A DNA stretch of 64,000 bases from Dehalococcoidia bacterium. GTDB lineage: Bacteria > Chloroflexota > Dehalococcoidia > UBA2979. Within the stretch, counting starts at the first letter, position 1, and each line of letters begins with the position of its first letter. The notes beneath the pieces were generated by a model, which was given only the letters and a program-made list of their open reading frames with translations, did not search any database and had not been told where the DNA came from. The stretch covers positions 1,824,001 through 1,888,000 of the forward strand of contig OZ244720.1 of assembly GCA_965219085.1 (NCBI GenBank), given 5' to 3'. Both the position numbers and the translations under genes were made by a program. Of this stretch, positions 24,488 to 39,371 are shown piece after piece.

Positions 24488-26396
24488 CTAGCTGTTGTGA
24501 ATGCAGCCGACCTCGCGGTCGCTCGCCGCCTCGGTCATGGCGACGAGCTCATCGCGATGCTGCCCGTCGCCGGTCCACGCCGGGGCGAACCCCTCCGCCA
24601 CCATCACGGCGTCGATGGAGACTCCCTCCAGCGTGTAGACGTAGCGCAGCGTGCGGCCGTGCTTGTCCGCCTCCCGCGGGCCAGGCTCGACCAGGACCGC
24701 CTCACCGACGAGCTCGCGCAGCCGGTTGGTGGCCTCCATGTAGCAGGCTTCGCCGCGCTCACGTGTGTCGATACCGTAGAAGCGGATGCGGCGACCGTCG
24801 GCGATGTCGAAGGTGTCGCCGTCAACGACCGCGACGACCTCGACGCGTTCGGTTGGCTCCCGTGGCGTGACGGCCGAGACGTCGGCCAGTCGCGTTGTCG
24901 CTGTGACCCGACCCCTTGAAACGGGACCACCGTTGATGAGAGTCCTCTGGCCCATGAAAGTGGGTGGAGGAGGACATCACGGTGAAACGACGCAGGCACA
25001 CGCCCGAGCAGATCGTGCGGAAGCTGCGGGAGGTGGAGCGGCTGCTCGGTGAGGGGCAGACGATCGCCGAGGCGGCGAAGCAGGTCGAGATCTCGGAGCA
25101 GACCTACCACCGCTGGCGCAACCAGTACGGCGGGATGAAGGCCGACGACGCCAAACGGCTGCGCGAGCTGGAGCGCGAGAACGCCCGGCTGAAGCGGATC
25201 GTCGCCGACAAGGAACTCGAGATCGACGCGCTCAAGGAGATCGCCCGGGGAAACTGGTAAGCCCGTCGCGCCGGCGCGAGGCAGTCTGCATGTTGCAGGA
25301 CCGCCTCGAGTTGTCGGAACGGCGGGCATGCCGGGTCACCGGCCAGCACCGCTCCACACAGCGCCGCCTCCCGACGCGCGGCCGCGGCGACGACGCGCTG
25401 CGCGCGGAACTCCACGCCTTCTCGCGTGGCCACCCCCGCTGGGGGTACCGCCGGGTCTGGGCGACCTTACGCGAGGAGGGCTGGGGCGTGAATCGCAAGC
25501 GGGTGCAACGGCTCTGGCGTGAGGAAGGGCTGCGCGTCCCGGTGAAACGGCGCAAGCGTCAGCGCCTGGGGGACTCGGCGGTGCCCGCCGCCAGGCTGCG
25601 CGCTGAGCGGCCGAACCACGTCTGGGCGCTGGACTTCCTGTTCGACCAGACCGCGGACGGGCGGGTCCTGAAGCTGCTCAACATCGTCGACGAGCACACA
25701 CGGGAGGCGCTGGCGATCGTGGCCGCAGGAGCATCAACGCCGACGCCACGGCCTCAACGCTCGAGGGGATCGTCGCCCGGCGCGGGACGGCGCCTGGGTA
25801 CATCCGCTGCGACAACGGTCCAGAGCTCACGGCCAACGCGCTGCGCGACTGGTGCCGGTTCTCCGGCACGGGCAGCAGCTACATCGAGCCCGGTGCGCCG
25901 TGGGAGAACCCGTACGTGGAGTCGTTCAACGGCCGGCTGCGCGACGAGTTCCTGGCCGTCGAGCAGTTCGACAGCCTGCTCGAGGCGCAGGTGCTGCTTG
26001 AGGACTGGCGGATCGAGTACAACACGAAGCGCCCGCATAGCAGCCTGGGCTGGCTCGCCCCGGCTGCCTACGCCGAGCGCTGGGAGGCTCAGCAGCACGC
26101 TGGACTCTCATAAGCGGTGGTCTCGCGAAGGGGGTCCGGTCAGCTGCACCGGCGCCCTCGGGGGTGGCGTTCTGCGCGTCGCCGGCCATGTCCAGCAACG
26201 TCTCGCCCCCGGAGTACATGAGCATGGTGAAGAAGCTCCCCACCACAATGCCGACCAGCGCCCGGATGATGAACCGTATGAGCTGTGTGTCTTTCTGGTG
26301 CTGAGCACCGAAAACGCCGGCAGCGCCGGCGTGAGTGAGTTGGTTGCCGATACCGAGGCCCCTATTGGGCGGCGACGACGCGCCCGCGACGAGCAC
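24488..26396 (-). pseudogene. Membrane-anchored thermonuclease interrupted by IS3
   Basis: VVDGDT, IRFYGIDTRE, DKHGRTLRYV; removing IS3 and one GCTG restores in-frame PEGAGAATTRLAD with an N-terminal TM helix. Confidence 0.8.
24904..26142 (+). mobile_element. IS3-family element (orfA 24982-25260, orfB with extra frameshift near 25730)
   Basis: TG...CA ends with IRs TGACCCGACCCCTT / TGACCGGACCCCCTT, 4-bp TSD GCTG, GGGAAAC slippage site, WALDF and ESFNGRLRDE motifs. Confidence 0.95.
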
Positions 26397-27542: not shown

Positions 27543-28943
27543 TCAAGCTCCGGCGAGGGGTTGTAGCGTAGGCAGCGGACGGGCCGGCGCCGGAGCGCTC
27601 TGCGACTCCTGACCGCGGCGGCCCGTCCCCTTGCGCGAGCCCGCGCGGGGGCCGAGTCGCTGGCGGCGCACCTCGGCTGGGACGCTGTAGCGCTCGGCGA
27701 CGATGCTCCGCCCCTCGGCCACGGAGACGGGCTGGCCGTCGCAGTCGCGGATGACGTAGCGCTCGCCGCGCCGCCAGCAGGCGACGACGCGCGTGAGCAG
27801 CGTGGTGGCGATATGGCAGAGCGCCGAGTTGTGGTGCTTGCCGGCGGCGACCATGAGCCGCTGGTAACGGGCGGCGAGCGTGGGGTCGATGCGCCGCGCA
27901 TGGTCGGCGGCGATGAAGATCGCCTCGCGCAGGGCGGCGTCGCCGCGGCGGGTCGGACGGCCGTGGCGGCCGCTCACGCCGGAGGCGTTGAGCGAGGGCA
28001 CGAGCCCGCTGAAGGAGCGCACCCCGGCGAGGGAGCGGAAGCGGTTGGGATCGCCGAGGCGGGCGAGGATCTGGGGACCGGTGACGGGACCGATGCCCGG
28101 CGCCGAGGTGAGGATCGCCTCGGGGTCGGCCTCCTCGAAGAGGAGCGCGATGCGCTCGTCGAGCGCGGCGACCTCGTCTGTGAGGATGAGGGCGAGCCTG
28201 GCCTCGACGGCGATGTCCTCGGCGAGCTGGTCGAAGTCGAAGGCGTCCTCCCAGAGCGCGAGCGTCTCCTCCGCGGCGTCCAGCAGCGCCGCAGCGTGCT
28301 CCGGGCCCCAATGGCCGCGCGAGTGGCGATACAGGAAGCGCCCGAGGCGCGCCCGGCCGAGCCGTTCCACCGTGTCGGGACAGGCGTAGCCGGCTGCAAG
28401 GAACCGCAGCGGGGTCTTGTTGGCGAGGTCGGCGCGGAAGGCCTCCAGCCACTTCGGCCCGAGCAGCTCCAGCAGCGCGTCGAGCCGCGCCAGCGACTTC
28501 GTGCGCCGCTGCACCAGGCTCTGACGCAGCCGCGTCGCGCGCCGCAGCGGGTCGCCCGGCCCGAGGCCGTGCTCGTCGTGCAGCCCCTCGGGGTGCAGCA
28601 GCGGGAGCCGCGCCAGCAGACGCGAGTCGAGCCGGTCGCTCTTGGTGTGCTTATGGTAGTAGTCGCGCAGGTCCGCCGAGCGCTCCGGCGGCACCAGCAC
28701 GACGCGTGCGCCGCGACGGCGGAACCAGGCGGCGAGCGCCACCCAGGCGTTGCGCGTGGGCTCCAGGATCACCAGCACCTCGGTGTCTGTTCCTCGCTCG
28801 GGCAGCATCGCCCACAGCCGCTCGAGGTCTTCGGCCCCGGTGCGGAAGCGGTGTCCGCTCCAGAGGAAGCGCCCGCTCTCGTCGGCGAGGCTCGCCTGGT
28901 GGGCGGCCCGGGACGCGACGTCGATTCCCAACCACAGCTGCAT
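27543..28943 (-). CDS. IS110 DEDD recombinase
   Basis: LGIDVAS, LEPT, KSDRLD, PGIGPV, SGLVPSLNASG. Confidence 0.95.
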   Translation of the reverse strand: MQLWLGIDVASRAAHQASLADESGRFLWSGHRFRTGAEDLERLWAMLPERGTDTEVLVILEPTRNAWVALAAWFRRRGARVVLVPPERSADLRDYYHKHTKSDRLDSRLLARLPLLHPEGLHDEHGLGPGDPLRRATRLRQSLVQRRTKSLARLDALLELLGPKWLEAFRADLANKTPLRFLAAGYACPDTVERLGRARLGRFLYRHSRGHWGPEHAAALLDAAEETLALWEDAFDFDQLAEDIAVEARLALILTDEVAALDERIALLFEEADPEAILTSAPGIGPVTGPQILARLGDPNRFRSLAGVRSFSGLVPSLNASGVSGRHGRPTRRGDAALREAIFIAADHARRIDPTLAARYQRLMVAAGKHHNSALCHIATTLLTRVVACWRRGERYVIRDCDGQPVSVAEGRSIVAERYSVPAEVRRQRLGPRAGSRKGTGRRGQESQSAPAPARPLPTLQPLAGA

Positions 28944-28959
28944 ACAGTCGCTCCGTTCC

Positions 28960-29215
28960 TGCACCCCCGCGCTCACTCGGTCCGCGCTGGCCACCGGAGA
29001 GGGACGTCGTACCGGACATTCGCTAACAGGGATCCGGGCGCCACCGCCCGGTCACCGGGTTCCCAACAGGACGCTTCGTCCCCGGCGGTGGCCCCGCCCG
29101 CCTCGTGGTCAACAGGCCAGGAGTCGCGTTGCGCTCCGATCGGTCAATCAACGACGGCGGACAGGCGCCGGACCCTCTGATCCTGAGGCCGGCCGGCCGG
29201 TCCGGCCAGCATCCG
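28960..29215 (-). ncRNA. Candidate bridge RNA of IS110 (boundaries approximate)
   Basis: Upstream non-coding end with two hairpin-split loops whose arms match the target and donor junction sequences. Confidence 0.65.
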
Positions 29216-30061
29216 GAGGGCAGATCCAGATTGAATGTCCGTCATCACCGCTTCGACCGTGATGCCCTGTTCAGCGAACCAGTCGAGCGTCCGCTCGAGG
29301 AACGCGAGGGCATCGTGGCGGCGGTCCGTGGGGAGCACCTCGGCGTAGGCCAGCCGCGAGTGGTCGTCGACGGCGACGTGCACGTGCTGCCAGCCCGCGC
29401 GCGGGCTGCGCGTGACCCCGTCGCCCAGGATGCGCTTACCGACGTGCCAGAAGCGCCCCAGCTTCTTGGTGTCTATGTGCAGCAGCTCCCCCGGGCGCTC
29501 GCGCTCGTAGCGCACCACCGGGGGTCGCGGCTCGCGCGGCAGCCGCGCGGCCCAGCCGCCGCAGCACCTTGCCCACGGTCGAGGCGGGGCGGCCGAGCAT
29601 CGCGCCCAGGGTGAGCGGGCCGGCCCCGCTGCGCTCGCGCGCGGCCACGATCTCGGCCTCCTCGGCCGGGGAGAGGCGGCGCGGCTGGTGCTTCGGGGTG
29701 GAGGGACGCTCGCGCAGTCCCGCCCAGCCGCCGGCCCGGTAGCGCGCGAGCCAACGGTAGCCCGTGGCACGGCTCGCGCCGACGCTGGCGGCGGCCTTGG
29801 CGGGGCTCATGCCCGCGAGCATCGCGGAGATGGCGCGGCAGCGCGCCTCGAACGAATAGAGCATCCGCTCGGGCCTGTTGGTGGCATCATGCATCGGGAC
29901 CTCCTTCGGAACCTGGGTCGTGTTCAACCCCAAGTCTCGTCGGAGGCCCCTTTGCGATCAGGTGTCTCGCAGGTGTGTAGTCAGTACAGCTAGAGGCTTC
30001 GTGCCCCCAACGGTAGTACGCGAGTCCCGCGAGGATCGTCACCTTGCCGATAGCGAGGTCT

Positions 30062-30529
30062 CTACCGGGCGGCGACGCCCGCGCGCTCACCGTCGATGCG
30101 CGGGTCCCTGTCGAGCCACAGGTCCTCATCGCCGTGGCGGGCCGCCGTGCGAGCGGACGCCACCTGGGCCTCGGCGGCATTGGCGGCGGCGCGAGCGCTG
30201 AAGAGCATGTCGAGCGCGCGGTCGCCCGACTTCAGGGCGCGCCAGCGGGCCTCCCTCGCGTACGTCGGGCCGCGTGTCGCGAGGCGAGTTGCGTCCGCGG
30301 GGCGTTCCTGTTCGGTCAGCGCGAGGTGGTACATCTGCCCGGCGTGCGCGTGCTGTAGTTGGGCCTGCTCCGTCGCCTTCGGGTCGCCGAGGTGACGCGT
30401 ATCCCGCACCGCGGCTGCTGCGCGTCGTACCTCTCCGAGCGTGGAGTCCGCGAACCTCTTGGCCCTCGCCGCGTGCGTCGCGGTCGCCTGCTGGTCGGTC
30501 AGTTCGCTTGTCGCCTGGTTGGTCGTCAT
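30062..30529 (-). CDS. Hypothetical alanine-rich helical protein
   Basis: AGGAGA RBS before ATG; 155-aa ORF. Confidence 0.55.
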   Translation of the reverse strand: MTTNQATSELTDQQATATHAARAKRFADSTLGEVRRAAAAVRDTRHLGDPKATEQAQLQHAHAGQMYHLALTEQERPADATRLATRGPTYAREARWRALKSGDRALDMLFSARAAANAAEAQVASARTAARHGDEDLWLDRDPRIDGERAGVAAR

Positions 30530-31172
30530 CGGGACAGTCTCCTAATGGGTCTTCCGGGAGCACTACGCCGCCGACATCGTGTCGTGCGGCAAGACGGACC
30601 CCCTGTGTTGACGGGAGTCCGCGATTGACCTCGAGGGGTGGGGTGTCACCTGTACGCGCGCACGTAGGAAGCACAGCCACACGCAGAGTCCCGGCGCAGG
30701 GCGCAGGAATCCCCGTGGGGCGATCGTCGAGGTGGCGGGTGAGTGACGAGACACCATGCTGCAGCGAGTGCTGCATGGTGAGCCCTGGGCGCGGATCGAG
30801 GTCGGTCCGCGAGCAGGTGTCCGCTTACACAACTCCGCCCACCGAAGAATGGTGGTCAGCGTTGCGCAGGTGGCCGGAGGTCGTCAGCGTGAGGTGCCGG
30901 GATCTCCTGCGCGCTTGGTTGTTCGCGAGTCCGCAAGCGGAGTCGGGAGCATCGTGCGCGAACGATGTCTAAGCAAGCTCATCCGAAGATGTGCGAGCTG
31001 CTGGCTGGATGGTTGTACGAGGCCGGCGGATGAGAGCGAGTGTCCTCGTCTGCTATCTGCCGCAACTGCTTCGTCCAGTCTCGTGTTTTGGATGAATCCT
31101 GGCTCACGAGTGCAGCGCTGTATTGAGGGCGGTAGTGTCCCCGTCCCGCGACCAGCCAGTCAAGGGGGTTAA

Positions 31173-31575
31173 GCGTCCGTGGACAGACTTTCTCTGTCCG
31201 CAGCGTCCGTGGACACTTTTTCCGCCTCGTCCGCAGCGTCCGTGGACACCTGTCCGCCTCGTCCGCAGCGTCCACGAGGCTCAAGCGCTGCCCACGCACA
31301 GGCCCAGGACGAGCGTCCGCAGCGTCCGCGAGGCTCAAGCGCGGCCCCACGGACAGGCCCAGGACGAGCGTCCGCAGCGTCCGCGAGGCTCAAGCGCGGC
31401 CCCACGGACAGGCCCAGGACGAGCGTCCGCAGCGTCCGCGAGGCTCAAGCGCGGCCCCACGGACAGGCCCAGGACGAGCGTCCGCAGCGTCCACGAGGCT
31501 CAAGCGCGGCCCCACGGACAGGCCCAGGACGAGCGTCCGCAGCGTCCACGAGGCTCAAGCGCGGCCCACGGACAG
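31173..31575. repeat. Iteron-like tandem array (about 33-bp units then about six 55-bp units)
   Basis: GAGCG recurs at 31311, 31366, 31421, 31476, 31531; shared core GTCCGCAGCGTCC. Confidence 0.9.
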
Positions 31576-32030
31576 CCCGGAGCAAGGCGCACATGAGTCG
31601 CCAGGGCGCCCTCCGCGCGCCGACAGCGCCGCATGAGGGGGCCATGACCGCCAAAAGTGTCCGTGAGACGTGTCCACGGACAGAATCCATGCACGTTAAC
31701 TATAGATCTCTCTCATTAAGTTTCTTTTCTTGTCTCTCGTCCTCCGCCTCTTCCCGCTCCCCACTCCTCATTCCTCGCTCCTCGCCTCTCGCTTCTCGAC
31801 ACCCCATCCGCATCACCATTCCCCGCCCCATCCTTCCCCGTGCCTTCCACGCTTCTCCACGACCCATCCACTTCCACCCCTCCTGCTCCGTGCCACCTCT
31901 GCTCCTGGCTCATCCACTCTTGCTCCTTCACGCTCCACCCCGGCTCGCCCTGCTCTCCTGGCCCCGGCCACGTCACGGGGATCGCTTCCACCGCGTAGCC
32001 CGGTGCTCCCGTAACCGCGACCGAATCCGT

Positions 32031-32771
32031 GCCGCTGCGCGCGACCTGGTGCACGCGTGCACGAGGTGAGCCGGGGGTCGGCGCCACGAGCTGCCGCGGG
32101 CCGGGGAAGAGGCGGTGGCGCGGGCCTGTCGCCGGGCTGCGCCTCGCGCCGGGGGCGCGCTCGGCTGGACCCGCCTCGGGCCGCTCCGCGCCGAGGGGCC
32201 ACACGTCGCTGCGCGCGACCTGGTGCGCGCGTGCACGAGGTGAGCCGGGGGTCGGCGGCCACGAGCTGCCGTGGACGCCGGGGAAGGAGCGGTGACGCGG
32301 GCCTGTCGCCGGGCTGCGCCTCGCGCCGGGGGCGCGCTCGGCTGGACCCGCCTCGGGCCGCTCCGCGCCGAGGGGCCACACGCCGCTGCGCGCGACCTGG
32401 TGCGCGCGTGCACGAGGTGAGCCGGGGGTCGGCGGCCACGAGCTGCCGTGGACGCCGGGGAAGGAGCGGTGACGCGGGCCTGTCGCCGGGCTGCGCCTCG
32501 CGCCGGGGGCGCGCTCGGCTGGACCCGCCTCGGGCCGCTCCGCGCCGAGGGGCCACACGCCGCTGCGCGCGACCTGGTGCACGTGTGCACGAGGTGAGCC
32601 GGGGGTCGGCGCCACGAGCTGCCGTGGGCGCCGGGGAAGGAGCGGTGACTCGGGCCTGTCGCCGGGCTGCGCCTCGCGCCGGGGGCGCGCTCGGCTGGAC
32701 CCGCCTCGGGCCGCTCCGCGCCGAGGGGCCACACGCCGCTGCGCGCGACCTGGTGCGCGCGTGCACGAGGT
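32031..32771. repeat. About 177-bp tandem repeat, four full copies plus a partial fifth
   Basis: GACCTGG at 32043, 32217, 32394, 32571, 32747. Confidence 0.93.
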
Positions 32772-32967
32772 GGCCGGAACGTGCCGGAATACGCTTCCGC
32801 ACGCGTGTGCCACGGAGAGGGCGCGAGGCTGCAGTCACCCTGATAGAATACGGCCAGAGAGGAACACATGGGCTACTCACAAGGCGACGAGAGCAGGGGA
32901 GCGCGGGAGCGGGCGGTGGCCCCCCGGACGCTCCGCCGAGCGCCGCCAGCAGTGAGCAGAGGCCTAG

Positions 32968-33512
32968 CAGGGTGCTGAAAAAGGCGCGGCCATCTGGCAG
33001 GATGGGGCTGGCGGCGGGGGCATAGCCTGGGAGGCAGCCCCGTGCGAGGTGACGCCGAGCGCCAGACCAACATGTTGCTGGCGGTGACGCCGGACTCCTT
33101 CATCCCGGACGACCACCCGATCCGACGCATCAAACCGATCGTCGATGCCGCGCTGCAGCGGCTCTCGCCGCTGTTCGGCACGATGTACGCAACGAGCGGG
33201 CGGCCCTCGATCCCGCCCGAGCACCTGCTCAAGGCGAGCCTGCTGATCGCGCTCTACTCGGTGCGCAGCGAGCGCCAGTTCTGCGAGCGGCTGCGCTACG
33301 ACCTGCTCTTCAAGTGGTTCTTGGACCTCAACATCTCAGACGCGCCGTTCGACGCCTCGACCTTCTCCAAGAACCGCGAGCGCCTGCTCGCAGCCGATGT
33401 CGCGCGCGCCTTCTTCGCCGAGGTGGTGGCCGAGGCAAAGCGCCGCCGGCTGCTCTCCGCCGAGCACTGCACGGTGGACGGGACGCTGCTCGAGGCGTGG
33501 GCGTCGCTCAAG
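32968..33512 (+). mobile_element. IS5-family left end and 5' transposase fragment (CDS from 33042)
   Basis: CTAG then CAGGGTGCTGAAAAA end; MRGDAERQ, GRPSIPPEHLLKA, YSVRSERQ, VDGTLLEAWASLK, then cut by IS1111. Confidence 0.85.
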
Positions 33513-33624
33513 AGATGGCATGAGGGCCGGTCTCTTCCTCAAGGGGGATACTCGCCCCCGAAACAGCGGCCTCGATGGGCCAGAACGGCTCTTTGCGGAG
33601 CTTTGACGAGGTAGGAGACCGGCC

Positions 33625-34713
33625 GTGCAGCAGGATACCGCAACGACGTGGAGCATTGAGGGCAAGGAAGGGTCAGGGGTCACCATCGGCCTCGACGTGG
33701 GCGACCGCTACACCCACGTCCACGCCCTCGGCGCCGGCGGGGAGGTGGTACGTGAGAGGCGCGTCCGCACCACGACGGCAGCGCTGGGCATGGTGCTGAC
33801 CGGCCTCCCCCCATCGCGGGTCGTGATCGAGGCGGGGCCGCGCTCGCCGTGGCTGAGCCGCCTCATGGCGGACCTCGGCCACGAGGTGGTCGTCGCCAAC
33901 CCGCGCCAGGTCGCGCTGATCGCCCGCAGCCAGCGCAAGACCGACCGGCTCGACGCCGAGTGGCTGGCGCGGCTGGGGCGCTTCGACCCCCAGTTGCTCG
34001 CCCCGATCCGCCACCGCAGCGAGGCGAGCCAGCACGACCTCGCCGTGGTGCGCGCCCGCGACGCGCTGGTGCGCTCGCGGACGCTGCTCATCAACCACGT
34101 GCGCGGGGCCGTCAAGGCCTGCGGAGCCGCGTTGCCGTCGTGCACGGCCGAGGCGTTCCACCGCAAGACGGCGGACCACATCCCCGACGGGCTGCGCCCG
34201 GCGCTGCTGCCGCTGGTGGAGGCGATCGGCGAGCTGACCGCGCGCATCGCGGCGGCCGGCCGCGAGATCGAGGCGTTGTGCGAGGCTCACTCCGAGACCG
34301 CGGCGCTGCGCCAGGTCACGGGCGTCGGGCCGATCACCGCGCTCACGTTCGTGCTGACGATCGAGGATCCTGGGCGCTTCCCGAAGAACCGCGAGGTCGG
34401 CGCCTACCTCGGGCTCGTGCCGAGGCAGCGCGACTCGGGCGAGCGCACGCCGCAACTCGGCATCGGCAAGAGCGGCGATCCGCACCTGCGGCGGCTGCTG
34501 GTGCAGGCCGCGCACTACATCCTCGGCCCCTTCGGGCCCGACACCGACCTCCGCCGCTGGGGTGAGCGCTACACCGCTACGGGGGCCGGTAACGCGAAGA
34601 AGCGCGCCGTCGTGGGCGTCGCGAGGCGGCTGGCGGTGCTGCTGCTCGCGCTGTGGAAGACCGGCGAGGTCTACGAGCCGTTGCGCGACGCCGCGGCGCA
34701 GGAGGCCGCGTAG
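33625..34713 (+). CDS. IS110/IS1111 DEDD recombinase
   Basis: IGLDVGD, VIEAG, KTDRLDA, GVGPITA, YLGLVPRQRDSG. Confidence 0.95.
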   Translation: MQQDTATTWSIEGKEGSGVTIGLDVGDRYTHVHALGAGGEVVRERRVRTTTAALGMVLTGLPPSRVVIEAGPRSPWLSRLMADLGHEVVVANPRQVALIARSQRKTDRLDAEWLARLGRFDPQLLAPIRHRSEASQHDLAVVRARDALVRSRTLLINHVRGAVKACGAALPSCTAEAFHRKTADHIPDGLRPALLPLVEAIGELTARIAAAGREIEALCEAHSETAALRQVTGVGPITALTFVLTIEDPGRFPKNREVGAYLGLVPRQRDSGERTPQLGIGKSGDPHLRRLLVQAAHYILGPFGPDTDLRRWGERYTATGAGNAKKRAVVGVARRLAVLLLALWKTGEVYEPLRDAAAQEAA

Positions 34714-34799
34714 CAAGGCGCGGCGCCGAAGCAACCGACCAGGAGAGCGAGACTGAGACGGACCTGGGAGGAGGCCCAGCAAACCAACCACTGCACGTG

Positions 34800-34950
34800 A
34801 TGCCGGGCAACGGGCGACTGCGAGGCGGTAGCGGTCCAACAAGGACGTTCAAGAGTTGGCAGCGCCCCCTGGAAGCAGGATGTGCCTTCATGCACCGGGC
34901 CCGATACGTGGCCCATCAAAGAGTGCGGATAGAAGCTCGGCACAGGCTCC
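34800..34950 (+). ncRNA. Candidate bridge/seek RNA in downstream non-coding region (boundaries approximate)
   Basis: Contains TCAAGAG (left target plus core), ATAGAAG (right end plus core) and CCATC (complement of left end). Confidence 0.6.
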
Positions 34951-35037
34951 GTCAGGGGACATCACGAGCGGATCGGCCCCGATGTCGAGGAGCGCCACGC
35001 CCCGAGGAGGAAGCCGCCACGTCGGCCTTGCAGAAAG

Positions 35038-35948
35038 GTCGGGTAAGGGGCTGGCGCGGTACGAGCCGTAGGCAGTGGCGCTTATCCCGCCGGTTTCCCG
35101 CCGGTGCTCACTTCCACGTGCCGTAGCCAACGCCCGTTTCCAGCCCCTCCCCTTCGAACCGTGCATGCGGTTCTCCCGCACACGGCTCACCGACGTCCTT
35201 CACCGGATGGCATTCGGCCCCGCCCGCCACGCACGCTCCACAACGTCCCTGCGGTGGACTTTGTCGTAGAGCGCGTGAAAACGTCGCTCGGCTCGGCCTT
35301 GGCCGCCCGGTAGAGCGTGTGCTGTAGTTCTCGGACCTTTTGCTCGGCGGTTCTAGCCACGACGGGCACTCGCCAATCCTTCCCCAAGCTACACGCGCAG
35401 ACGAAGTAGCGGCCCTTCCCTCACCGGCGGTTCTGTTGTCCGCTCGGCTCAATCGGTACTATGGCCGCCTCCGACTCCCTCCCGGCCGGCTACCCACTTC
35501 CCGGTTCGTCACCGGTTATAGGGCACCTCGCTCCGGCACCAATCCGCAGGCGCCGGACCGGGGAGGGCCTCCCCAGTTCCCGCCGTCACCTTCCACACGT
35601 TCCGCGCCCTCTACGCCGGGAGGTTCTTCGGGGTTGCGCCTCCAGGCTCTTCACCCCTTCCATGGCCTTCGCCCTGACGGCCGGGGCTCGGCTCCTCCTT
35701 GTTCCCACCATGCGGTGGGTATGTTCACGACGCGGCAGACTTCGCTTCATGCTGCGGACCGCGTGGTCGCTCCCCCTCAAGGGCTTTCGACATCGGGCTC
35801 CGGCCCGGCCCGTTTCCAGACCCGACCGCCGATCTGCTACCGGGCCCCCTGGCAGTTACCCGGACCGGACTTTCACCGGTAGGCGACGACGAGCATGTCT
35901 CCGGACTGATCAGATCATTCTGCACCGTCCTTCGACTTCAGGGCGCAC
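35038..35948 (-). mobile_element. Group II intron with internally deleted RT ORF (911 nt)
   Basis: 5' GTGCG; domain V GAGCCGTGTGCGGGAGAACCGCATGCACGGTTC; domain VI ending CCCGAC; RT stub KVRELQHTLYRAAK...FHALYDKV; EBS1 GCCGTC pairs with 5' exon GACGGT. Confidence 0.92.
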
Positions 35949-35963
35949 ACCGTCCCTCATAGA

Positions 35964-36270
35964 AGTGACCGCTGCGGCTCGGAGGCGTCGCCGGGACTGT
36001 CGTCAGCACCCGCCTCGACCGCGGCGACCTCCGCCGCGACCGGCTCGGGTGCGGCCCACGCGGCGTCGACGAGCAGCGCTTCGGCGTCCGCGGCGACTTG
36101 CTGCGCCTGGGCGAAGACCGACTCGACCGAGCCGGCATCCTCCTCGCCGGCGATGATCTTCCTGGCCAGCGCCAGCATCAGGTCGTCACCGTCGTCCCAG
36201 CGCCACTCGAAGACGCACAGCGTCGGAGCCTCGCGCCGACTCCGCGCCTTCGGCTCCGGCTGCTCGCCGG
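35964..36270 (-). pseudogene. Probable C-terminal fragments of the island helicase
   Basis: DDGDDLMLALARKII...EPQRSL cut by the IS1111 right end; assignment to the helicase is from recalled family similarity. Confidence 0.5.
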
Positions 36271-36274
36271 CCCC

Positions 36275-36685
36275 CTATCGGAGCAGGGCGACGAAGCCAG
36301 CCTGCACGAAGTCCCGGTCGTGAGCGAGTGCCTCCGAGATCCCTCGCTCCTCCATGACAAGGAAGCTCGCGCAGTCGGTGAGACTCTAGGTCTGATCCGG
36401 GCGGCTGGCGTAGCGCTCGACGGCGGCCCGGAACTGCGCGTCCGTCTGCGGGGTCACCTCGACGTTTTGGCTGCGTTCGGCCCGCTCCACAACCCCATAG
36501 GCCAGGGACCGCTGTCGTTCCCCTCGGCTCCCGAAGATGTTGAGCATCTCGACCAGCACCATCTGGGTGGTCACGATGCGGCGCGGCCCGAGCGCCCTTG
36601 TCAGAGCGAGTGCCTTCTCGTGCAGCCTGTCACGAGGATCCTCAAGTGCGACCCAGTACCCCGTATCTGCGAATACGTCGCTCAC
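36275..36685 (-). pseudogene. vapC: VapC/PIN toxin with in-frame TAG
   Basis: VFADTGYWVAL...DQT*SLTDCASFLVM...DRDFVQAGF; stop at 36386-36388 where W is expected. Confidence 0.85.
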
Positions 36686-36954
36686 AGGTTCCGGTCCTTC
36701 GGGTGGCCGTACAAGTAGTGCTTGTAGTTCTCGGCGAGGTCATGGGGCCGATCGTCACGCTCGTCGGCTGGCGCGGACGCGTGCAGTTCCTCGATGAGTT
36801 GCACAAGGGCCCCCCCGCTTCCTTCAGCCCCCTCCTGCGACGCACGCGATGTGTCATCCATCGACACCGTCACCTCCGCGCCCTCGTCCAGGTCGACAGG
36901 CTCCGTAGGCGTGAACACGCCATTGGCGTAGGTAGCCTTCACAGTTGTGGTCAT
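36682..36954 (-). CDS. DUF104/AF2212-like antitoxin
   Basis: TVKATYANGVFTPTEPVDLDEGAEVTV...DLAENYKHYLYG; overlaps vapC start. Confidence 0.8.
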   Translation of the reverse strand: MTTTVKATYANGVFTPTEPVDLDEGAEVTVSMDDTSRASQEGAEGSGGALVQLIEELHASAPADERDDRPHDLAENYKHYLYGHPKDRNL

Positions 36955-37110
36955 GGTCGATCCTCCCGGCGCGCGCCTGCGTCTATCCTACCGCGCGTTA
37001 GGCCCCGGTTGGACGGTCGGGGGAACCGGAAAGGCGCTTACCACCGCGCGCAGTCAGCCGCGCCGTCCACGAGTAGCGCAGCGTTTGGTGTGGATTGGAA
37101 AACCGAGACC

Positions 37111-37870
37111 TCCGTTTCGTACCAGCAGATGGTGGGGAAGTCGACGAGGTCGAGGCCCGTCTGCACCAGCCGCAGATGGCAGACGAGCACGTCGACGCCC
37201 TCCTCGACCCGCTGCGCCACCCAGGCCTCGCGACGTTCGGGAGCGACGGATCCCGGCTTAATCACCGCGACCGTGAAGCCGTGGCGAGTGAGGAAGTCGT
37301 CCATCCGCTCCGTGATGTCACGCGTTCCCGTGTGGGTGGCGTAGACCAGCACCCGCCGGCCCGCCAGGCGCTCGGCGGCGACGAGGTCGACGAGGGACTG
37401 CTCCTTCGGGTAGAGCTTCTCCTCGGAGAGGGGAGGCACCTGGATGAGCACCTCCCCGGACTCCGGGTCGAAGACCGTCTCGCCGCGCGTGCAGCCGTCC
37501 GGGTAGGCCAGGAGCGTCTGCAGGTAGGTGGCCAGCAGCCGCTTCGAGCCCTTCGCCAGCACTTCCGTGAGGGCGGCGCGCAGCGTCTCGAAGACGGAGT
37601 CGTAGGCGCTCCGCTGGGAGAAGCCGCTACCGTCCTCCTCGTCGTCCATCGAGGAGAGCAGCACCCGCTCCTCGTAGGGCGGCAGCCCGGAGGCCACGTC
37701 CGAGAGGCGCAGGAAGATGCTGGCGCCGATGAGGTGAAAGAGCGCCGCGGGGGCGAGCCCCGGCCGCTCCCGGATCACCTTGCGGTACTTGCGGCGGCGG
37801 CTCGTGCGCCCGTCCTCGAGCGACTCGCCGTCGTCGCGCCCGATGGTGTGCTCGACGAAGCCGTAGCGCC
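37111..37870 (-). pseudogene. SNF2/DEAD-like helicase fragment A
   Basis: KLYPKEQSLVDLV, RRVLVYATHTG, LVQTGLDLVDFPT; truncated at WYET. Confidence 0.8.
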
Positions 37871-39371
37871 CTATCTTCTTCGTCAAGGCCATCGGGCTCC
37901 TGAAGCTGGCTGAGTCGACGTCATCACGCGGCGACCGGACGGTCGTGCGGGATCTTCGCCCGGTACGGCCGGCGCGAGCGGAGCATGGCCAGGATGACGT
38001 CGCAGCGCCGGCGCGCGAGGCAGATGACCGCGGCGTTGTGTCGCTTCCCCTCGGCGCGCTTGCGGTCGTAGAAGGCCCTCGAGGCGGGGTCTCGCAACGA
38101 GGCGAAGGCGGCGAGGAACATCGCGTTCTTGAGCCTGTGGTTGCCGCGCCGGCTGCGCGCCTCGCCGCGGAGGCTGGAGCCCGACTGGCGTGTCACCGGC
38201 GCGAGTCCGGCGTAGCTCGCGAGCCTCGATCCGTTAGCGAAGCGGGAGCCGTCGCCGATCTCAGCGAGGATCCTCGACCCTGTCCGGGGGCCGATGCCCG
38301 GCAGCGTCCGGAGGATGCGTCCGAAAGGGTGTGCCTCGAAGAGGGCCTCGATCTCGGCCTCGAGCCGCTTGCGGCGCTCCAGCGTGCGGTCGAGTTCGGC
38401 GACCACCTCGGCGATCACGCGCCCCGTCACGGCCTCGACGGGCACGACGACGGTCTGCGCGTCGAGGGCCTCGGCGACGGTCGCGGCCAAAGCCTTCGCG
38501 AGGCGCGGCGAGCGCTTCCGCACCACCCGCGCGATCCGGCCGCGCCCGGCCGCAGCCAAGGCTTGGGGCACCGGGTGGCGGGTGAGGAGGTCGCGTACGC
38601 CCGGATGGTGCAGCCTGGGACCCAGAACGCGCTCCAGGGCCGGGGACACGCTCGTCAGCCGTCCCGCAGCCGGTTGGAGAGCCGCGTGGCGTCCGCGGCG
38701 AGGTCGGTGTCGTAGCCGTTGAGGACGCGCAGCTGATCGAGCAGCTCGTCGTCGCCGGCGTCGAGCCAGTGCACCTGGTGGCGCCGGGTGCGGCCGGTGT
38801 CGGCGATCACGAAGGCGTCGCGGCGGTCGGTCTTGGCCTCGCCCGGGTAGAGGTCGGCGGCGCGGCGCATGACCAGGCCGGGCACGTATGCGACCGGCAC
38901 ACCGAGGCGCGCAGCGACGGCGAGCACGAGGCTGGCGAGCGAGCCGGGCTGGTCGACGACCAGCGCAGGGGTACCGAGGGCCTGGGCGCGGCCGAGGAGC
39001 GCCTCGATGTCGGCCTCGCCGTTGGCCACGGCGCCGGCGAACAGCGGCGAGCCCGCGGCGTCCAGCACTTCAGCGAAATGTTCTGCCTTGCCGATGTCGA
39101 GGCCAATCCACACGTCGATGTCGTCGGGCGTTCCCACTGCGGCTCCTCATGGGTGCTTCGTCCACTCGTCCGGAAGGCCGCAGGTGCGCGCGCCGTCATC
39201 CACCTTACGAATCAGCGATCAGGTCGCATGTCCCCATCAGAGGTTCACGCACCGAGCAGCGCCGGTGGCAACACCCCCCAAGGCCGTCGAGCGACAGGGG
39301 GCACTGAGCCATGCCGGCACTGCCGGACTCCCGGCCCGGGAACCTACCCAGGCCGCAGGAAGAAGGTAAGG
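37871..39371 (-). mobile_element. IS110 (IS900/IS116-type) element, transposase 39137-37924 frameshifted near 38655, right end clipped
   Basis: IGLDIGK, VDQP, KTDRRDA, PGIGP, YAGLAPVTRQSG; left end CCTTACCTT; TTGACG near right end. Confidence 0.88.
39190..39345 (-). ncRNA. Candidate bridge RNA of third IS110 (boundaries approximate)
   Basis: GTGCCCCCT matches junction GTACCCCCT; GTAAGG is complementary to left end CCTTAC; each guide pair flanks a hairpin. Confidence 0.6.

What the first reader, a model, noticed from the sequence alone, without database searches (positions are those of the whole stretch)
33505..35975. IS1111 element guided to an IS5 transposase motif, with mismatched flanks recording a rearrangement
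Seen: left junction GCTCAAG-AG lies in IS5 AWASLK; the downstream non-coding region has GCGGTAGC (34825-34832)-hairpin-TCAAGAG (34849-34855), spelling TCAAGAGCTACCGC = (L)-K-S-Y-R, a plausible IS5 continuation, and donor matches CCATC (34913) and ATAGAAG (34929). The right junction is AG-TGACCGC in a different gene, sharing ACCGC with the guide. Inference: a second transposase-targeting IS110; recombination between an on-target and an off-target copy fused the two loci.
Basis: partly seen in the sequence, partly recalled or inferred. Interest (0 to 1): 0.72.

Follow-up and report, generated by a model that had tools for sequence, protein, structure and literature searches.

The report
RNA-guided IS1111 element inside IS5
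This is an RNA-guided jumping gene of the IS1111 type that is aimed at another jumping gene's transposase, carries a hitch-hiking group II intron, and has one flank from a second, poorly matched site, which marks a lost stretch of chromosome.

Summary
Window 33515-35965 is an IS1111-group insertion sequence: an IS110-family RNA-guided transposase (33625-34713), sub-terminal inverted repeats and a 3' non-coding RNA gene (~34793-34960).

**Guides.** One internal loop of the RNA carries GGCGGTAGC (34824-34832) and TTCAAGAG (34848-34855). These spell both halves of the IS5 target CTCAAGAG|CTACCGCC. Eight uninterrupted IS5 copies read exactly this, and four sister copies sit at that site. Guides and flanks co-vary across four guide types in this genome and five more in related MAGs.

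911 nt of the "non-coding region" (35038-35948, minus strand) is an ORF-less group II intron. It sits inside the right inverted repeat, 17 nt from the end.

**The flanks.**
- The left flank is IS5. The right flank (TGACCGCT, from 35966) is the tail of a repeated helicase-like gene.
- Six paralogous tails read GAGAACAG|CG.. at that point, so the site is a weak pseudo-target with the AG core.
- One IS5 right half is missing from the genome and no reciprocal junction exists, so DNA was deleted.
- I cannot tell whether the cause was homologous recombination between an on-target and an off-target copy, or a one-ended RNA-guided transfer.

This is a new member of a known kind, of moderate interest.

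The parts
32964..33514 (+). 5' 551 nt of an IS5-family element (full length 1303 nt). Its transposase ORF starts at 33042 and is cut after ...EAWASLK.
   Evidence: Pfam DUF772. 14 genomic copies of this left part. Left end at about 32964. Full element and its length. An intact copy passes NF033581.
33513..33514 (+). AG core dinucleotide at the left junction. The same AG recurs at 35964-35965.
   Evidence: Empty sites read CTCAAGAG|CTACC. Filled sites read CTCAAGAG-ATGGC...CATAGAAG-CTACC.
33515..35965 (+). IS1111-group insertion sequence: 2451 nt with the intron, 1540 nt without it.
   Evidence: Boundaries come from four sister copies and eight empty IS5 sites. Sister copy c2 is identical over all 2451 nt.
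33520..33533 (+). Left sub-terminal inverted repeat ATGAGGGCCGGTCT, preceded by the terminal extension ATGGC (33515-33519).
   Evidence: Read directly. It pairs with AGACCGTCCCTCAT at the right end of intron-less copies at 13 of 14 positions.
33625..34713 (+). IS110-family RNA-guided (DEDD) transposase gene, 362 aa, intact.
   Evidence: Pfam PF01548 and PF02371. NCBIfam NF033542 at 240 bits against a cut-off of 140.
34793..34960 (+). Predicted bridge/seekRNA gene: a long closing stem, a target-binding internal loop, three small hairpins and a single-stranded donor-like stretch.
   Evidence: Consensus fold of 7 variants and single fold. Variable columns are confined to the two loop strands. No Rfam family matches here.
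34823..34833 (+). 5' strand of the target loop (right-target guide). GGCGGTAGC is complementary to the top strand GCTACCGCC of the IS5 site.
34848..34855 (+). 3' strand of the target loop (left-target guide). TTCAAGAG is identical to the top strand (C)TCAAGAG, so it pairs with the bottom strand.
34927..34935 (+). GGATAGAAG, a candidate left-donor guide. It is identical to the right-end terminus ATAGAAG.
   Evidence: GGATAGAAG is kept in 6 of the 7 aligned variants; one, L007, reads GAATAGAAG, so the terminus match ATAGAAG is kept in all 7. The DNA here also served as a recombination site in copy d5.
34913..34917 (+). The assignment is weak.
   Evidence: Complementary to G|ATGG of the left end. 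Other copies read CCACC or CCACA although their left ends are unchanged.
35038..35948 (-). ORF-less group II intron, 911 nt, inserted in the right inverted repeat between GCAGAAAG and ACCGTCCC.
   Evidence: Rfam RF02003 (35747-35882) and RF00029 (35038-35190). Absent from copies c3-c5. Present at the same site in MAG locus L005, with 880 of 881 nt identical. No Pfam domain in its two longest minus-strand ORFs.
35949..35965 (+). Terminal 17 nt of the element: 12 nt of the right inverted repeat (35949-35960), the extension AGA and the core AG.
   Evidence: Identical to the last 17 nt of intron-less copies.
35966..36220 (-). Truncated C-terminal tail of a repeated helicase-like gene. TGACCGCT (35966-35973) is the right half of the pseudo-target.
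   Evidence: Ten or more paralogous tails in the genome. Six that extend across the point read GAGAACAG|CG.., and their translations read ...EPQRSLFSWAEFMA....

Best explanation
**What it is.** Window 33515-35965 is an IS1111-group insertion sequence.
- Its DEDD transposase works with a non-coding RNA made from the 3' non-coding region.
- One internal loop of that RNA carries two guides. GGCGGUAGC pairs with the top strand to the right of the AG core. UUCAAGAG pairs with the bottom strand to the left of it.
- The element is therefore aimed at CTCAAGAG|CTACCGCC inside the IS5 transposase gene (codons A-S-L-K-S-Y-R).
- A single-stranded GGAUAGAAG matches the element's own right terminus, which is the donor side.

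**The intron.** An ORF-less group II intron entered the right inverted repeat on the opposite strand. It now travels with the element: the window copy and copy c2 are identical over all 2451 nt but lie in different IS5 copies.

**The rearrangement.** In the window copy both junctions are exact, transposase-made ends, but they belong to two loci. On the left is the cognate IS5 site. On the right is a weak pseudo-target, inferred as GAGAACAG|TGACCGCT, in the tail of a helicase-like gene.

Most likely there was one copy at each site, in the same orientation. Homologous recombination between them then deleted the IS5 3' part, the DNA in between and the left part of the tail.

**Shown and inferred.**
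- Shown: the element's identity, its guides, the target, the intron, the hybrid flanks and the missing IS5 half.
- Inferred: that the RNA is made and used, that the second copy once existed, and that homologous recombination was the route.
For: **Family features**
- Transposase domains.
- Sub-terminal inverted repeats with a 7-nt left extension (AGATGGC) and a 3-nt right extension (AGA), and the non-coding region downstream.
- These are the IS1111 features listed in PMC11187229 (passages and sections 8, 9 and 13 read) and in PMC11208160 (passages).

**Target**
- 8 empty IS5 sites read CTCAAGAGCTACC.
- Copies c2-c5 are inserted exactly there.

**Co-variation of guides and flanks**
- Of the 37 copies in hand (26 MAG loci and 11 in this genome), 24 had a readable guide and both flanks. 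They make 15 distinct element and flank combinations; the other 13 were left out because a flank or the guide could not be read.
- 11 of the 15 match their own guide at 10 or more of 13 non-core positions. Two score 8. Two (d4 and L013) score 4 and 6.
- Non-cognate pairs average 4.3, with a maximum of 11 (n = 192).
- One case is a single-base swap: guide AGTGGGTG with flank AGTGGGTG in d1 and d2, against AGCGGGTG with AGCGGGTG in L024.
- All variable columns of the RNA alignment lie in the two loop strands.

**Intron travels with the element**
- The window copy and c2 are identical over element and intron.
- They share two private SNPs (34551 C, 35012 A) against c3-c5 and all diverged copies.
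- Their IS5 flanks differ 7 nt from the junction.

**Rearrangement**
- The right junction lies exactly at the element terminus.
- Six of six paralogous tails that cross this point have AG in the same register.
- The right half-site matches 5 of 7 positions, which 2.4% of AG sites do.
- 14 IS5 left halves face 13 right halves. Of the 12 right halves that a pattern search found, all follow either CTCAAGAG (8) or a right end (4). The thirteenth, d4's, is too diverged for that pattern. Its right flank was read directly and also follows a right end.
- None of the 11 left ends has a tail-type flank.

**Recombination among copies does occur in this genome**
- d4 is a chimera, 100% identical to d1 from about position 300 to the end, yet it sits in IS5.
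- Copies d2, d3 and d5 carry extra right ends joined to internal sites that follow an AG. An off-target insertion followed by homologous deletion would leave exactly that.

**Local junctions are real**
- Run X16 has a 970-nt contig covering 35159-36128 with no differences.
- Run X14 has contigs covering 34921-35152 and 35936-36128 with no differences.
Against: - **No second copy survives.** No reciprocal product exists either, so the two-copy route rests on analogy.
- **The pseudo-target is weak.** It matches 2 of 6 left and 5 of 7 right non-core positions. About 3,690 AG sites (1.1%) in the genome match as well or better.
- **The left half of the pseudo-target is inferred.** It comes from paralogs that are only 77-88% identical.
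- **The RNA is not shown to exist.**
  - The fold is no more stable than shuffled sequence (z = -0.91; 44 of 200 shuffles fold as well).
  - Only 2 of 45 predicted pairs show compensatory change, and the stems are nearly invariant.
- **The CCATC donor match does not hold** in diverged copies.
- **Short contigs cannot link the two junctions.** They are 2.45 kb apart, and runs X14 and X16 may be the sample the genome was assembled from.
- **Independent retrohoming is not fully excluded.** The intron could have entered two copies separately. One RT-like locus exists in the genome (RVT_1 at 3113454-3114152, with a GIIM match that contains a TGA).
Confidence: 0.5

Rival explanations
1. The element, its guides and its target are as in the best explanation, but the hybrid flank was made in one step by the recombinase itself. 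Either the right-end junction (donor-left plus IS5-right) was transferred to the pseudo-target's right half on the same chromosome, or the left-end junction of a copy in the tail was transferred to a cognate IS5 site. The DNA in between was lost as a circle. No second full copy and no homologous recombination are needed.
For: - A preprint on an IS110-group element reports exactly such junction transfers, LD-RT to a new RT and LT-RD to a new LT, without a circular intermediate (10.1101/2025.10.25.684509; abstract and section 8 read).
- Both window junctions are exact element ends.
- The pseudo-target lies on the same strand and in the same orientation as the IS5 site.
- No second copy or reciprocal junction exists.
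- This route needs fewer events than two insertions plus homologous recombination.
- The extra right ends joined to internal AG sites in d2, d3 and d5 fit one-ended transfers between sister chromosomes equally well.
Against: - The preprint concerns the IS110 group, not IS1111. It is not peer reviewed and reports top-strand transfer only.
- The seekRNA paper warns that the two groups may work differently (PMC11187229).
- The pseudo-target match is weak.
- The sequence cannot separate this route from homologous recombination.
Confidence: 0.3
2. The two junctions are both real but are not linked in the cell. The assembler collapsed two identical 2.45-kb copies, one in IS5 and one in the helicase tail, and dropped the DNA between them. 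Alternatively, it mixed two strains.
For: - The genome is a single 3.3-Mb contig rated 92.7% complete, from a lineage known here only as MAGs.
- It holds five near-identical copies.
- The public contigs I could lay are all shorter than the element, so none links the two sides.
Against: - If two copies had been collapsed, a tail-left|left-end junction and a right-end|IS5-right junction belonging to this IS5 copy should exist in the reads. Neither is in the assembly. I could not search the reads for them, because the loose-end table was cut: 84 rows were not shown.
- A 2.45-kb repeat is short for long-read assemblies. That point rests on my own knowledge, not on a call.
Confidence: 0.08
3. An ordinary on-target insertion in IS5 was followed by an unrelated, illegitimate deletion that happened to start at the element's right end. 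Alternatively, an inversion or translocation left its reciprocal product elsewhere.
For: The region is crowded with mobile DNA and repeats.
Against: - The break is exactly at the element's last base. On the other side it falls at a position where 6 of 6 paralogs have the AG core and where ACCGC follows in register. Only 0.15% of AG sites have that.
- No orphan IS5 right half and no left end with a tail-type flank exists anywhere in the genome, which rules out a retained reciprocal product.
Confidence: 0.04

Closest known systems
ISEc11, ISPa11 and ISKpn4 (IS1111 family, seekRNA; Siddiquee et al. 2024, PMC11187229)
   Same: - DEDD transposase and sub-terminal inverted repeats.
- 7-nt left and 3-nt right terminal extensions.
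- Non-coding region downstream of tnp.
- Two short target matches in the RNA, with the top-strand match 5' of the bottom-strand match, overlapping at the insertion point.
   Different: - The target is the coding sequence of an IS5-family transposase, not a REP, an attC site or a chromosomal site.
- The host is a Dehalococcoidia-class lineage.
- The element carries a group II intron in its right inverted repeat.
- Neither the RNA nor transposition has been shown experimentally here.
IS621 bridge RNA system (IS110 group; Durrant et al. 2024, PMC11208160)
   Same: - An RNA with a target loop that reads both strands around a 2-nt core.
- A separate part of the RNA that matches the element's own ends.
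- Programmable specificity.
   Different: - The RNA lies 3' of tnp, not in the left end.
- The order of the guides is reversed.
- The inverted repeats are long.
- The donor-like nucleotides sit in a multiloop or single-stranded stretch, as that paper notes for many IS1111 members, not in a simple internal loop.
- The core is AG; that IS621's core is CT is recalled, not taken from a call.
[quoted passage not shown]
   Same: An IS1111-family element whose specific target lies inside another mobile element, so that each copy of the host transposon offers a landing site.
   Different: Here the target is inside transposase coding sequences (IS5; in sister subfamilies IS1380-like and IS3-like genes), not terminal repeats. 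I did not read that paper.
Direct-transfer pathway of CazIS110-1 (Sun et al. 2025 preprint, 10.1101/2025.10.25.684509)
   Same: It predicts LD-nRT junctions: a right end joined to a new right half-site while the rest of the element stays in place. The window's right junction looks like that.
   Different: - It was shown in vitro and on plasmids for an IS110-group element.
- Here there is only a genomic footprint, in an IS1111-group element, which homologous recombination explains equally well.

Membership tests
IS110 family (RNA-guided DEDD transposases) | Transposase with an N-terminal DEDD (RuvC-like) domain and a C-terminal Transposase_20 domain | tested here: met
   PF01548 (E = 2.8e-19) and PF02371 (E = 4.6e-20). 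NF033542 at 240.1 bits against a cut-off of 140.
IS110 family (RNA-guided DEDD transposases) | Site-specific insertion without a long target duplication; each element has its own target | tested here: met
   Five near-identical left junctions lie at the same IS5 position. There are 8 empty sites, and only the AG dinucleotide is shared by both junctions.
IS1111 group | Sub-terminal inverted repeats of about 11-13 bp (7-17 bp) with asymmetric terminal extensions, 7 bp (occasionally 6) on the left and 3 bp on the right | tested here: met
   ATGAGGGCCGGTCT pairs with AGACCGTCCCTCAT at 13 of 14 positions. The extensions are AGATGGC on the left and AGA on the right when the AG is counted on the left. 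The criterion is from PMC11187229 and PMC11208160.
IS1111 group | The long non-coding region lies downstream of tnp, with a short left end | tested here: met
   The left end is 110 nt (33515-33624). The 3' non-coding region is 341 nt without the intron (34714-35037 plus 17 nt).
IS1111 group | The RNA carries matches to both target strands, with the top-strand match 5' of the bottom-strand match | tested here: met
   GGCGGTAGC (pairs with the top strand) at 34824-34832 lies 5' of TTCAAGAG (pairs with the bottom strand) at 34848-34855. The order is the same in all 9 guide types. The criterion is from PMC11187229 sections 9 and 12.
IS1111 group | A seekRNA/bridge RNA is transcribed, binds the transposase and is needed for transposition | not testable with these tools
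   No RNA run held the stretch (0 of 19 rows were on record as RNA). The evidence is co-variation and fold only.
IS1111 group | Excision to a circle that joins the right and left ends | not tested
   No circle junction (CATAGAAG-ATGGCATG) was searched for in reads. The joints table lists none.
Group II intron | Domain 1-4 and domain 5/6 RNA structure, 5' GUGYG and 3' AY ends | tested here: met
   RF02003 at 95.1 bits (cut-off 49) and RF00029 at 44.8 bits (cut-off 40). The minus strand starts GTGCG at 35948 and ends ...CGAC at 35038. The GUGYG and AY consensus is recalled, not from a call.
Group II intron | Intron-encoded reverse transcriptase or maturase | tested here: not met
   The 911 nt hold no Pfam domain in the two longest minus-strand ORFs. 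It is therefore an ORF-less derivative. Only one RVT_1/GIIM locus exists elsewhere in the genome, and its GIIM match contains a TGA.
IS5 family (the target) | DDE transposase of the IS5 type | tested here: met
   An intact copy (L029:190-1263) passes NF033581 at 254 bits against a cut-off of 140. Pfam finds DUF772 and DDE_Tnp_1.

The most novel reading that the evidence does not exclude
The hybrid flank, and the extra right ends in sister copies, are natural footprints of one-ended RNA-guided junction transfer by an IS1111-type recombinase at partly matched pseudo-targets. If so, bridge and seekRNA recombinases themselves, not host homologous recombination, sculpt chromosomes by deletion and duplication in the wild.

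A linked reading is that this family has diversified its guides to hit the coding sequences of rival transposases (IS5, IS1380-like, IS3-like). It would then act as an RNA-guided weapon between transposons rather than merely seeking safe landing sites.
Probability: 0.25. Interest if true: 0.65.

Novelty: new member of a known kind. Interest (0 to 1): 0.45.

Why it matters
**A natural reprogramming series.** RNA-guided IS110 and IS1111 recombinases were described in 2024, mostly from a few model elements. This genome and its relatives offer near-identical scaffolds whose two loop strands alone have changed, redirecting the element to at least four different mobile-element targets in one cell. 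Empty and filled sites are available for each.

**What the system does off target in nature.**
- A weakly matched pseudo-target was used.
- A chromosomal deletion followed.
- Right-end duplications arose in sister copies.
- Some copies now carry a guide that does not match the site they sit in.

That bears on the specificity and safety of bridge recombinases as genome-editing tools.

**Layered parasitism.**
- An IS sits inside another IS's transposase gene.
- A group II intron sits inside the first IS's inverted repeat.
- In relatives, an IS110-group element sits inside the guide RNA gene itself.

None of this changes the known mechanism. It is useful natural history, not a new principle.

Tried and rejected
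**Leads that went nowhere or were rejected**

1. *Right boundary.* On first reading I thought the element ended near 35037 and that the rest was unrelated. I rejected this because intron-less copies continue with ACCGTCCCTCATAGAAG, the same 17 nt that follow the intron in the window.
2. *Reciprocal junction.* I searched for a tail-left flank joined to a left end, for a tail-left flank joined to an IS5 right half, and for any IS5 right half not preceded by CTCAAGAG or a right end. None was found. Five of the 17 pattern hits were unrelated near-matches.
3. *Size of the deletion.* The DNA to the left of the IS5 fragment (28000-33010) has no similarity to the 1.5 kb that follows six paralogous tails. 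The extent of the loss is unknown.
4. *Orthologous empty site in relatives.* The tail and the vapBC cassette occur in many copies in 18 of 18 genomes of the genus. The best match (G015, 97% over vapBC) is not colinear with the window, so it gave no ancestral site.
5. *Parent intron.* RF00029 finds only the two copies in the genome, at 36.4 bits, below the cut-off in that search. A third, 86% identical and further deleted fragment lies at 3165839-3166316 in a different context.
6. *Public runs.* A part without cover in a run, and the small-share runs X8-X13, say nothing. In run X2 the intron plus right-end stub continues into a different flank after 35965. I take this only as a sign that intron-bearing elements exist elsewhere.
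7. *RNA fold energy.* It gives no support (z = -0.91).
8. *Nested IS110-group element seen in MAG loci.* It is absent from this genome. BLASTN found nothing, and TBLASTN found only matches at 31% identity.
9. *Literature on introns in IS ends.* A search for group II introns in IS110-family ends listed 6 papers (listing only). None appeared to describe an intron in an IS1111 inverted repeat. I make no claim that this is unpublished.

Supplementary files of the papers were not opened. The IS1111 bridge RNA models and target logos held there could bear on how typical this RNA is.

Full report
**1. What is at the coordinates**

The window is G000:C1:1824001-1888000, from a 3.31-Mb, high-GC, single-contig genome. 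Its relatives are Dehalococcoidia and Tepidiformaceae MAGs.

- ORF 33625-34713 (+) encodes a 362-aa IS110-family RNA-guided transposase. Pfam finds DEDD_Tnp_IS110 and Transposase_20. NCBIfam NF033542 scores 240 bits against a cut-off of 140.
- Upstream, ORF 33042-33614 begins as an IS5-family transposase (DUF772) and reads ...GTLLEAWASLK before it runs into foreign sequence.

**2. Boundaries and sister copies**

BLAST against the whole genome finds five near-identical copies (at least 99.7%; the window copy and c2-c5) and six diverged ones (85-87%; d1-d6).
- In c3, c4 and c5 the element is 1540 nt. It is bounded by CTCAAGAG|ATGGCATGAGGGCCGGTCT... on the left and ...AGACCGTCCCTCATAGAAG|CTACCGCC on the right.
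- Uninterrupted IS5 copies read GCTCAAGAGCTACCGCC. Eight of them exist. An intact copy translates to ...EAWASLKSYRPRD and passes the IS5 model NF033581.
- The AG is common to both junctions and is the core.
- The ends carry 14-bp sub-terminal inverted repeats with one mismatch. Counting the AG on the left, the terminal extensions are 7 nt on the left and 3 nt on the right, and the long non-coding region lies downstream of tnp. These are the features that separate IS1111 from IS110 elements in Siddiquee et al. (PMC11187229) and Durrant et al. (PMC11208160).

**3.

Rfam places group II intron domains on the minus strand: D1-D4 at 35747-35882 (95.1 bits) and D5/D6 at 35038-35190 (44.8 bits).
- Comparison with c3-c5 shows a 911-nt insert at 35038-35948, between GCAGAAAG and ACCGTCCC. 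That is inside the right inverted repeat, 17 nt from the terminus.
- No Pfam domain is found in its two longest minus-strand ORFs, so it has no recognisable reverse transcriptase ORF.
- Copy c2 (genome 1971386-1973836) has the same intron. The window copy and c2 are identical over all 2451 nt. They share two private substitutions (34551 C, 35012 A) that are absent from c3-c5 and from all diverged copies.
- Their IS5 flanks differ (93.6% identity, with differences 7 nt from the junction). The intron-bearing element was therefore most likely copied as a unit by transposition.
- The same intron (880 of 881 nt identical) sits at the same site in locus L005 of another MAG, whose host element is only about 85% identical. 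This right-end site is therefore a true homing site for the intron.
- In this genome RF00029 finds only these two copies. There is a single RVT_1/GIIM locus, whose GIIM match contains a TGA.

**4. The guide RNA**

An alignment of the 3' non-coding regions of the copies in this genome shows near-invariant sequence, broken by two short variable blocks.

A consensus fold of seven variants places those blocks as the two strands of one internal loop. The loop is closed by GGGCGACUGC/GCAGCGCCC and capped by a conserved GUCC-N5-GGAC hairpin. It lies inside a long closing stem that also encloses three small hairpins and a single-stranded stretch containing GGAUAGAAG.

In the window:
- The 5' loop strand is AGGCGGTAGCG (34823-34833). 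Its reverse complement reads GCTACCGCC.
- The 3' strand is TTCAAGAG (34848-34855).
- Together they spell the IS5 site on both sides of AG. The strand that pairs with the top strand comes first, which is the IS1111 order (PMC11187229 section 9).

The diverged copies give the control:

| Copies | Left guide | Right guide (reverse complement) | Flanks | Target |
|---|---|---|---|---|
| d1, d2 | CGGCAGAG | AGTGGGTG | GGGCAGAG\|TGGGTGAG | IS1380-like DDE_Tnp_1_4 gene |
| d3 | TCCACCAG | AGCAGCTCG | CCCACCAG\|CAGCTCG | beside an IS256-like gene (that name is recalled; one search gave only the ORF) |
| d5 | CCGCATAG | AGCAGCCTG | CCGCATAG\|CAGCCTGG | IS3-like gene at ...YNTKRPHSSLG (the IS3 name is recalled), 10 empty sites |

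- Five further guide types in 26 MAG loci behave the same way.
- Of the 37 copies in hand, 24 had a readable guide and both flanks. They make 15 distinct element and flank combinations; 13 copies were left out because a flank or the guide could not be read.
- Eleven of the 15 match their own guide at 10 or more of 13 non-core positions. Two score 8, and two (d4 and L013) score 4 and 6. Non-cognate pairs average 4.3 (n = 192).

Caveats:
- The fold is no more stable than shuffled sequence (z = -0.91).
- The stems hardly vary, with 2 of 45 pairs compensatory.
- No Rfam family matches the region.
- No RNA data were available.
- GGATAGAAG is kept in 6 of the 7 aligned variants, and its last seven letters, which equal the right terminus, are kept in all 7.
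I regard that half of the donor reading as unproven.

**5. The mismatched right flank**

After CATAGAAG the window reads TGACCGCTGCGGCTCGG..., not CTACCGCC.
- This DNA is the C-terminal tail, on the minus strand, of a helicase-like gene. The tail is repeated ten or more times in the genome and occurs in 18 of 18 genomes of the genus.
- Six paralogous tails that run across the point read ...CCCACGAGAACAG|CG(A/T).... The window's T is a synonymous difference (TCA against TCG, Ser). The ancestral site was therefore very probably GAGAACAG|TGACCGCT.
- Against the guides this matches AG plus 2 of 6 left positions and 5 of 7 right positions. About 1.1% of the genome's AG sites do as well, and xxACCGC follows 0.15% of them.
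- So the site is a weak but non-random pseudo-target. The break lies exactly at the element's last base on one side and at a conserved AG on the other. That points to the recombinase, not to a random deletion.

**6. What was lost**

- The genome holds 14 IS5 left halves (8 empty, 6 next to a left end, d4 included) but only 13 right halves.
- A pattern search found 12 of the right halves: 8 follow CTCAAGAG and 4 follow a right end. The thirteenth, d4's, is too diverged for that pattern. It was read directly and also follows a right end.
- None of the 11 left ends has a tail-type flank. No tail-left|IS5-right junction exists.
- The rearrangement is therefore a deletion with no retained reciprocal product. 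Its size cannot be recovered.

**7. How it happened**

Two routes give the same sequence.

Homologous recombination between them then removed the DNA in between. This genome shows that such recombination occurs:
- d4 is a chimera, 100% identical to d1 from about position 300 onward. It sits in the IS5 site with the wrong guide.
- L013 and L014 in the MAGs also have guides that do not fit their flanks.
- d2, d3 and d5 carry two, two and five right ends. Each extra right end is joined to an internal site that follows an AG, and some of those sites resemble d5's own guides. An off-target insertion followed by homologous deletion would leave this.

*(b) One recombinase step.* Either the right-end junction was transferred to the pseudo-target's right half, or the left-end junction of a copy in the tail was transferred to a cognate IS5 site. 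This follows the "direct transfer" reactions reported for an IS110-group element in a preprint (10.1101/2025.10.25.684509, section 8).

I rank (a) first at 0.5 because it needs only known processes that are seen in this genome. I put (b) at 0.3 because it needs fewer events. Sequence alone cannot decide between them.

An assembly collapse of two real copies remains possible (0.08). Public contigs confirm each local junction:
- Run X16: 970 nt covering 35159-36128 with no differences.
- Run X14: 34921-35152 and 35936-36128 with no differences.

None of them links the two sides, and these runs may be the source sample.

**8. Comparison and novelty**

By every feature I could test, the element is a member of the IS1111 group. 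The transcription and function of the RNA, and circle formation, remain untested.
- Aiming at another transposon has a precedent in IS4321 and IS5075, known to me only from a reference-list entry.
- What is new here is the particular target, the set of naturally reprogrammed sister elements, the intron carried in the inverted repeat, and the genomic footprints of off-target action.
- This is a new member of a known kind.

Noticed in passing
G000:C1:340396-341913 (copy d4): This element sits at the IS5 (type A) site of a diverged IS5 copy but carries the IS1380-directed (type B) guide. From about position 300 to its end it is 100% identical to d1, and its first 100 nt resemble d5 (97%). It is a recombinant whose guide no longer fits its site.
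   Followed up: partly
G000:C1:1261318-1261394 (d2), 893304-893397 (d3), 2849988-2850740 (d5): These copies carry tandem extra right ends: 2, 2 and 5 copies of ...GACCGTCCCTCATAGAAG. Each extra junction joins the right terminus to an internal site of the non-coding region that follows an AG, for example GGATAG|AAGCTC and CTGGAAG|CAGGATG. They look like self-targeted off-target events.
   Followed up: partly
L018:3822-5104; also L005, L014 and L024: In four MAG loci a different, IS110-group element (1281-1283 nt, 362-aa transposase on the minus strand, long left end) is inserted inside the IS1111 element's guide RNA gene. The site, GGATAG|AAGCTC, is the donor-guide position. This element is absent from the window's genome.
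   Followed up: partly
L006:2133-2358 and L014:2129-2354; L008-L012 share the same pre-left-end flank: In L006 and L014 a second, unrelated group II intron (RF02005, with an RT-like coding stretch upstream) abuts the left end of the element on the minus strand. L008-L012 were not scanned with Rfam but show the same 16 nt before the left end, so they may hold it too. Introns have colonised both ends of this IS family.
   Followed up: no
G000:C1:2245422-2246918, and the same position in the IS5 copies that hold c3, c4 and c5: The IS5 element is also hit by a second, different IS110-family element (1497 nt, 409-aa stop-to-stop frame on the minus strand). It lies 130 nt downstream of the type A site. 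Some IS5 copies hold both insertions.
   Followed up: partly
window 25892-26048: An IS3-like element in the window holds an empty target site (CCGCATAG|CAGCCTGG) for the d5 subfamily. It is one of 10 such empty sites in the genome.
   Followed up: partly
window 31172-31575 and 32031-32777: Two tandem arrays lie just to the left of the IS5 fragment: period 55 nt x 5.8 copies (97% matches) and period 177 nt x 4.2 copies (96%). A related array lies at genome 1954172-1954761 on the other strand.
   Followed up: no
window 36277-36954 (minus strand): A vapBC-like pair: an AF2212-like antitoxin ORF (36682-36954) and a PIN-domain ORF (36386-36685). Read through, the PIN frame continues past an in-frame TAG at 36383-36385 to about 36277. 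The cassette lies inside the helicase-like gene, between its body (37038-37892) and its tail.
   Followed up: no
window 35966-36220, with paralogs such as G000:C1:2582330, 1914205, 719636 and 2589839: The last ~100 codons of a helicase-like gene (...DYSVYTMRQASRRSWRIGQTQPVQVVFMAY...SLFSWAEFMA...) are repeated ten or more times in the genome, often behind unrelated upstream sequence. They are multi-copy in 18 of 18 genomes of the genus. This looks like the repeated attachment region of an integrating element.
   Followed up: no
window 37924-38649 (minus strand): Another IS110-family transposase fragment (Transposase_20 domain only, 241 aa) abuts the truncated body of the helicase-like gene.
   Followed up: no
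window 43596-63977 (minus strand): A single ORF of 6793 aa.
   Followed up: no
L013 and L014: In L013 the guide does not fit either flank (type F guide at a type E site). In L014 a type B guide does not fit the right flank, AGCAGGTCC; its left flank could not be read. Hybrid or mismatched flanks recur in this IS family.
   Followed up: no
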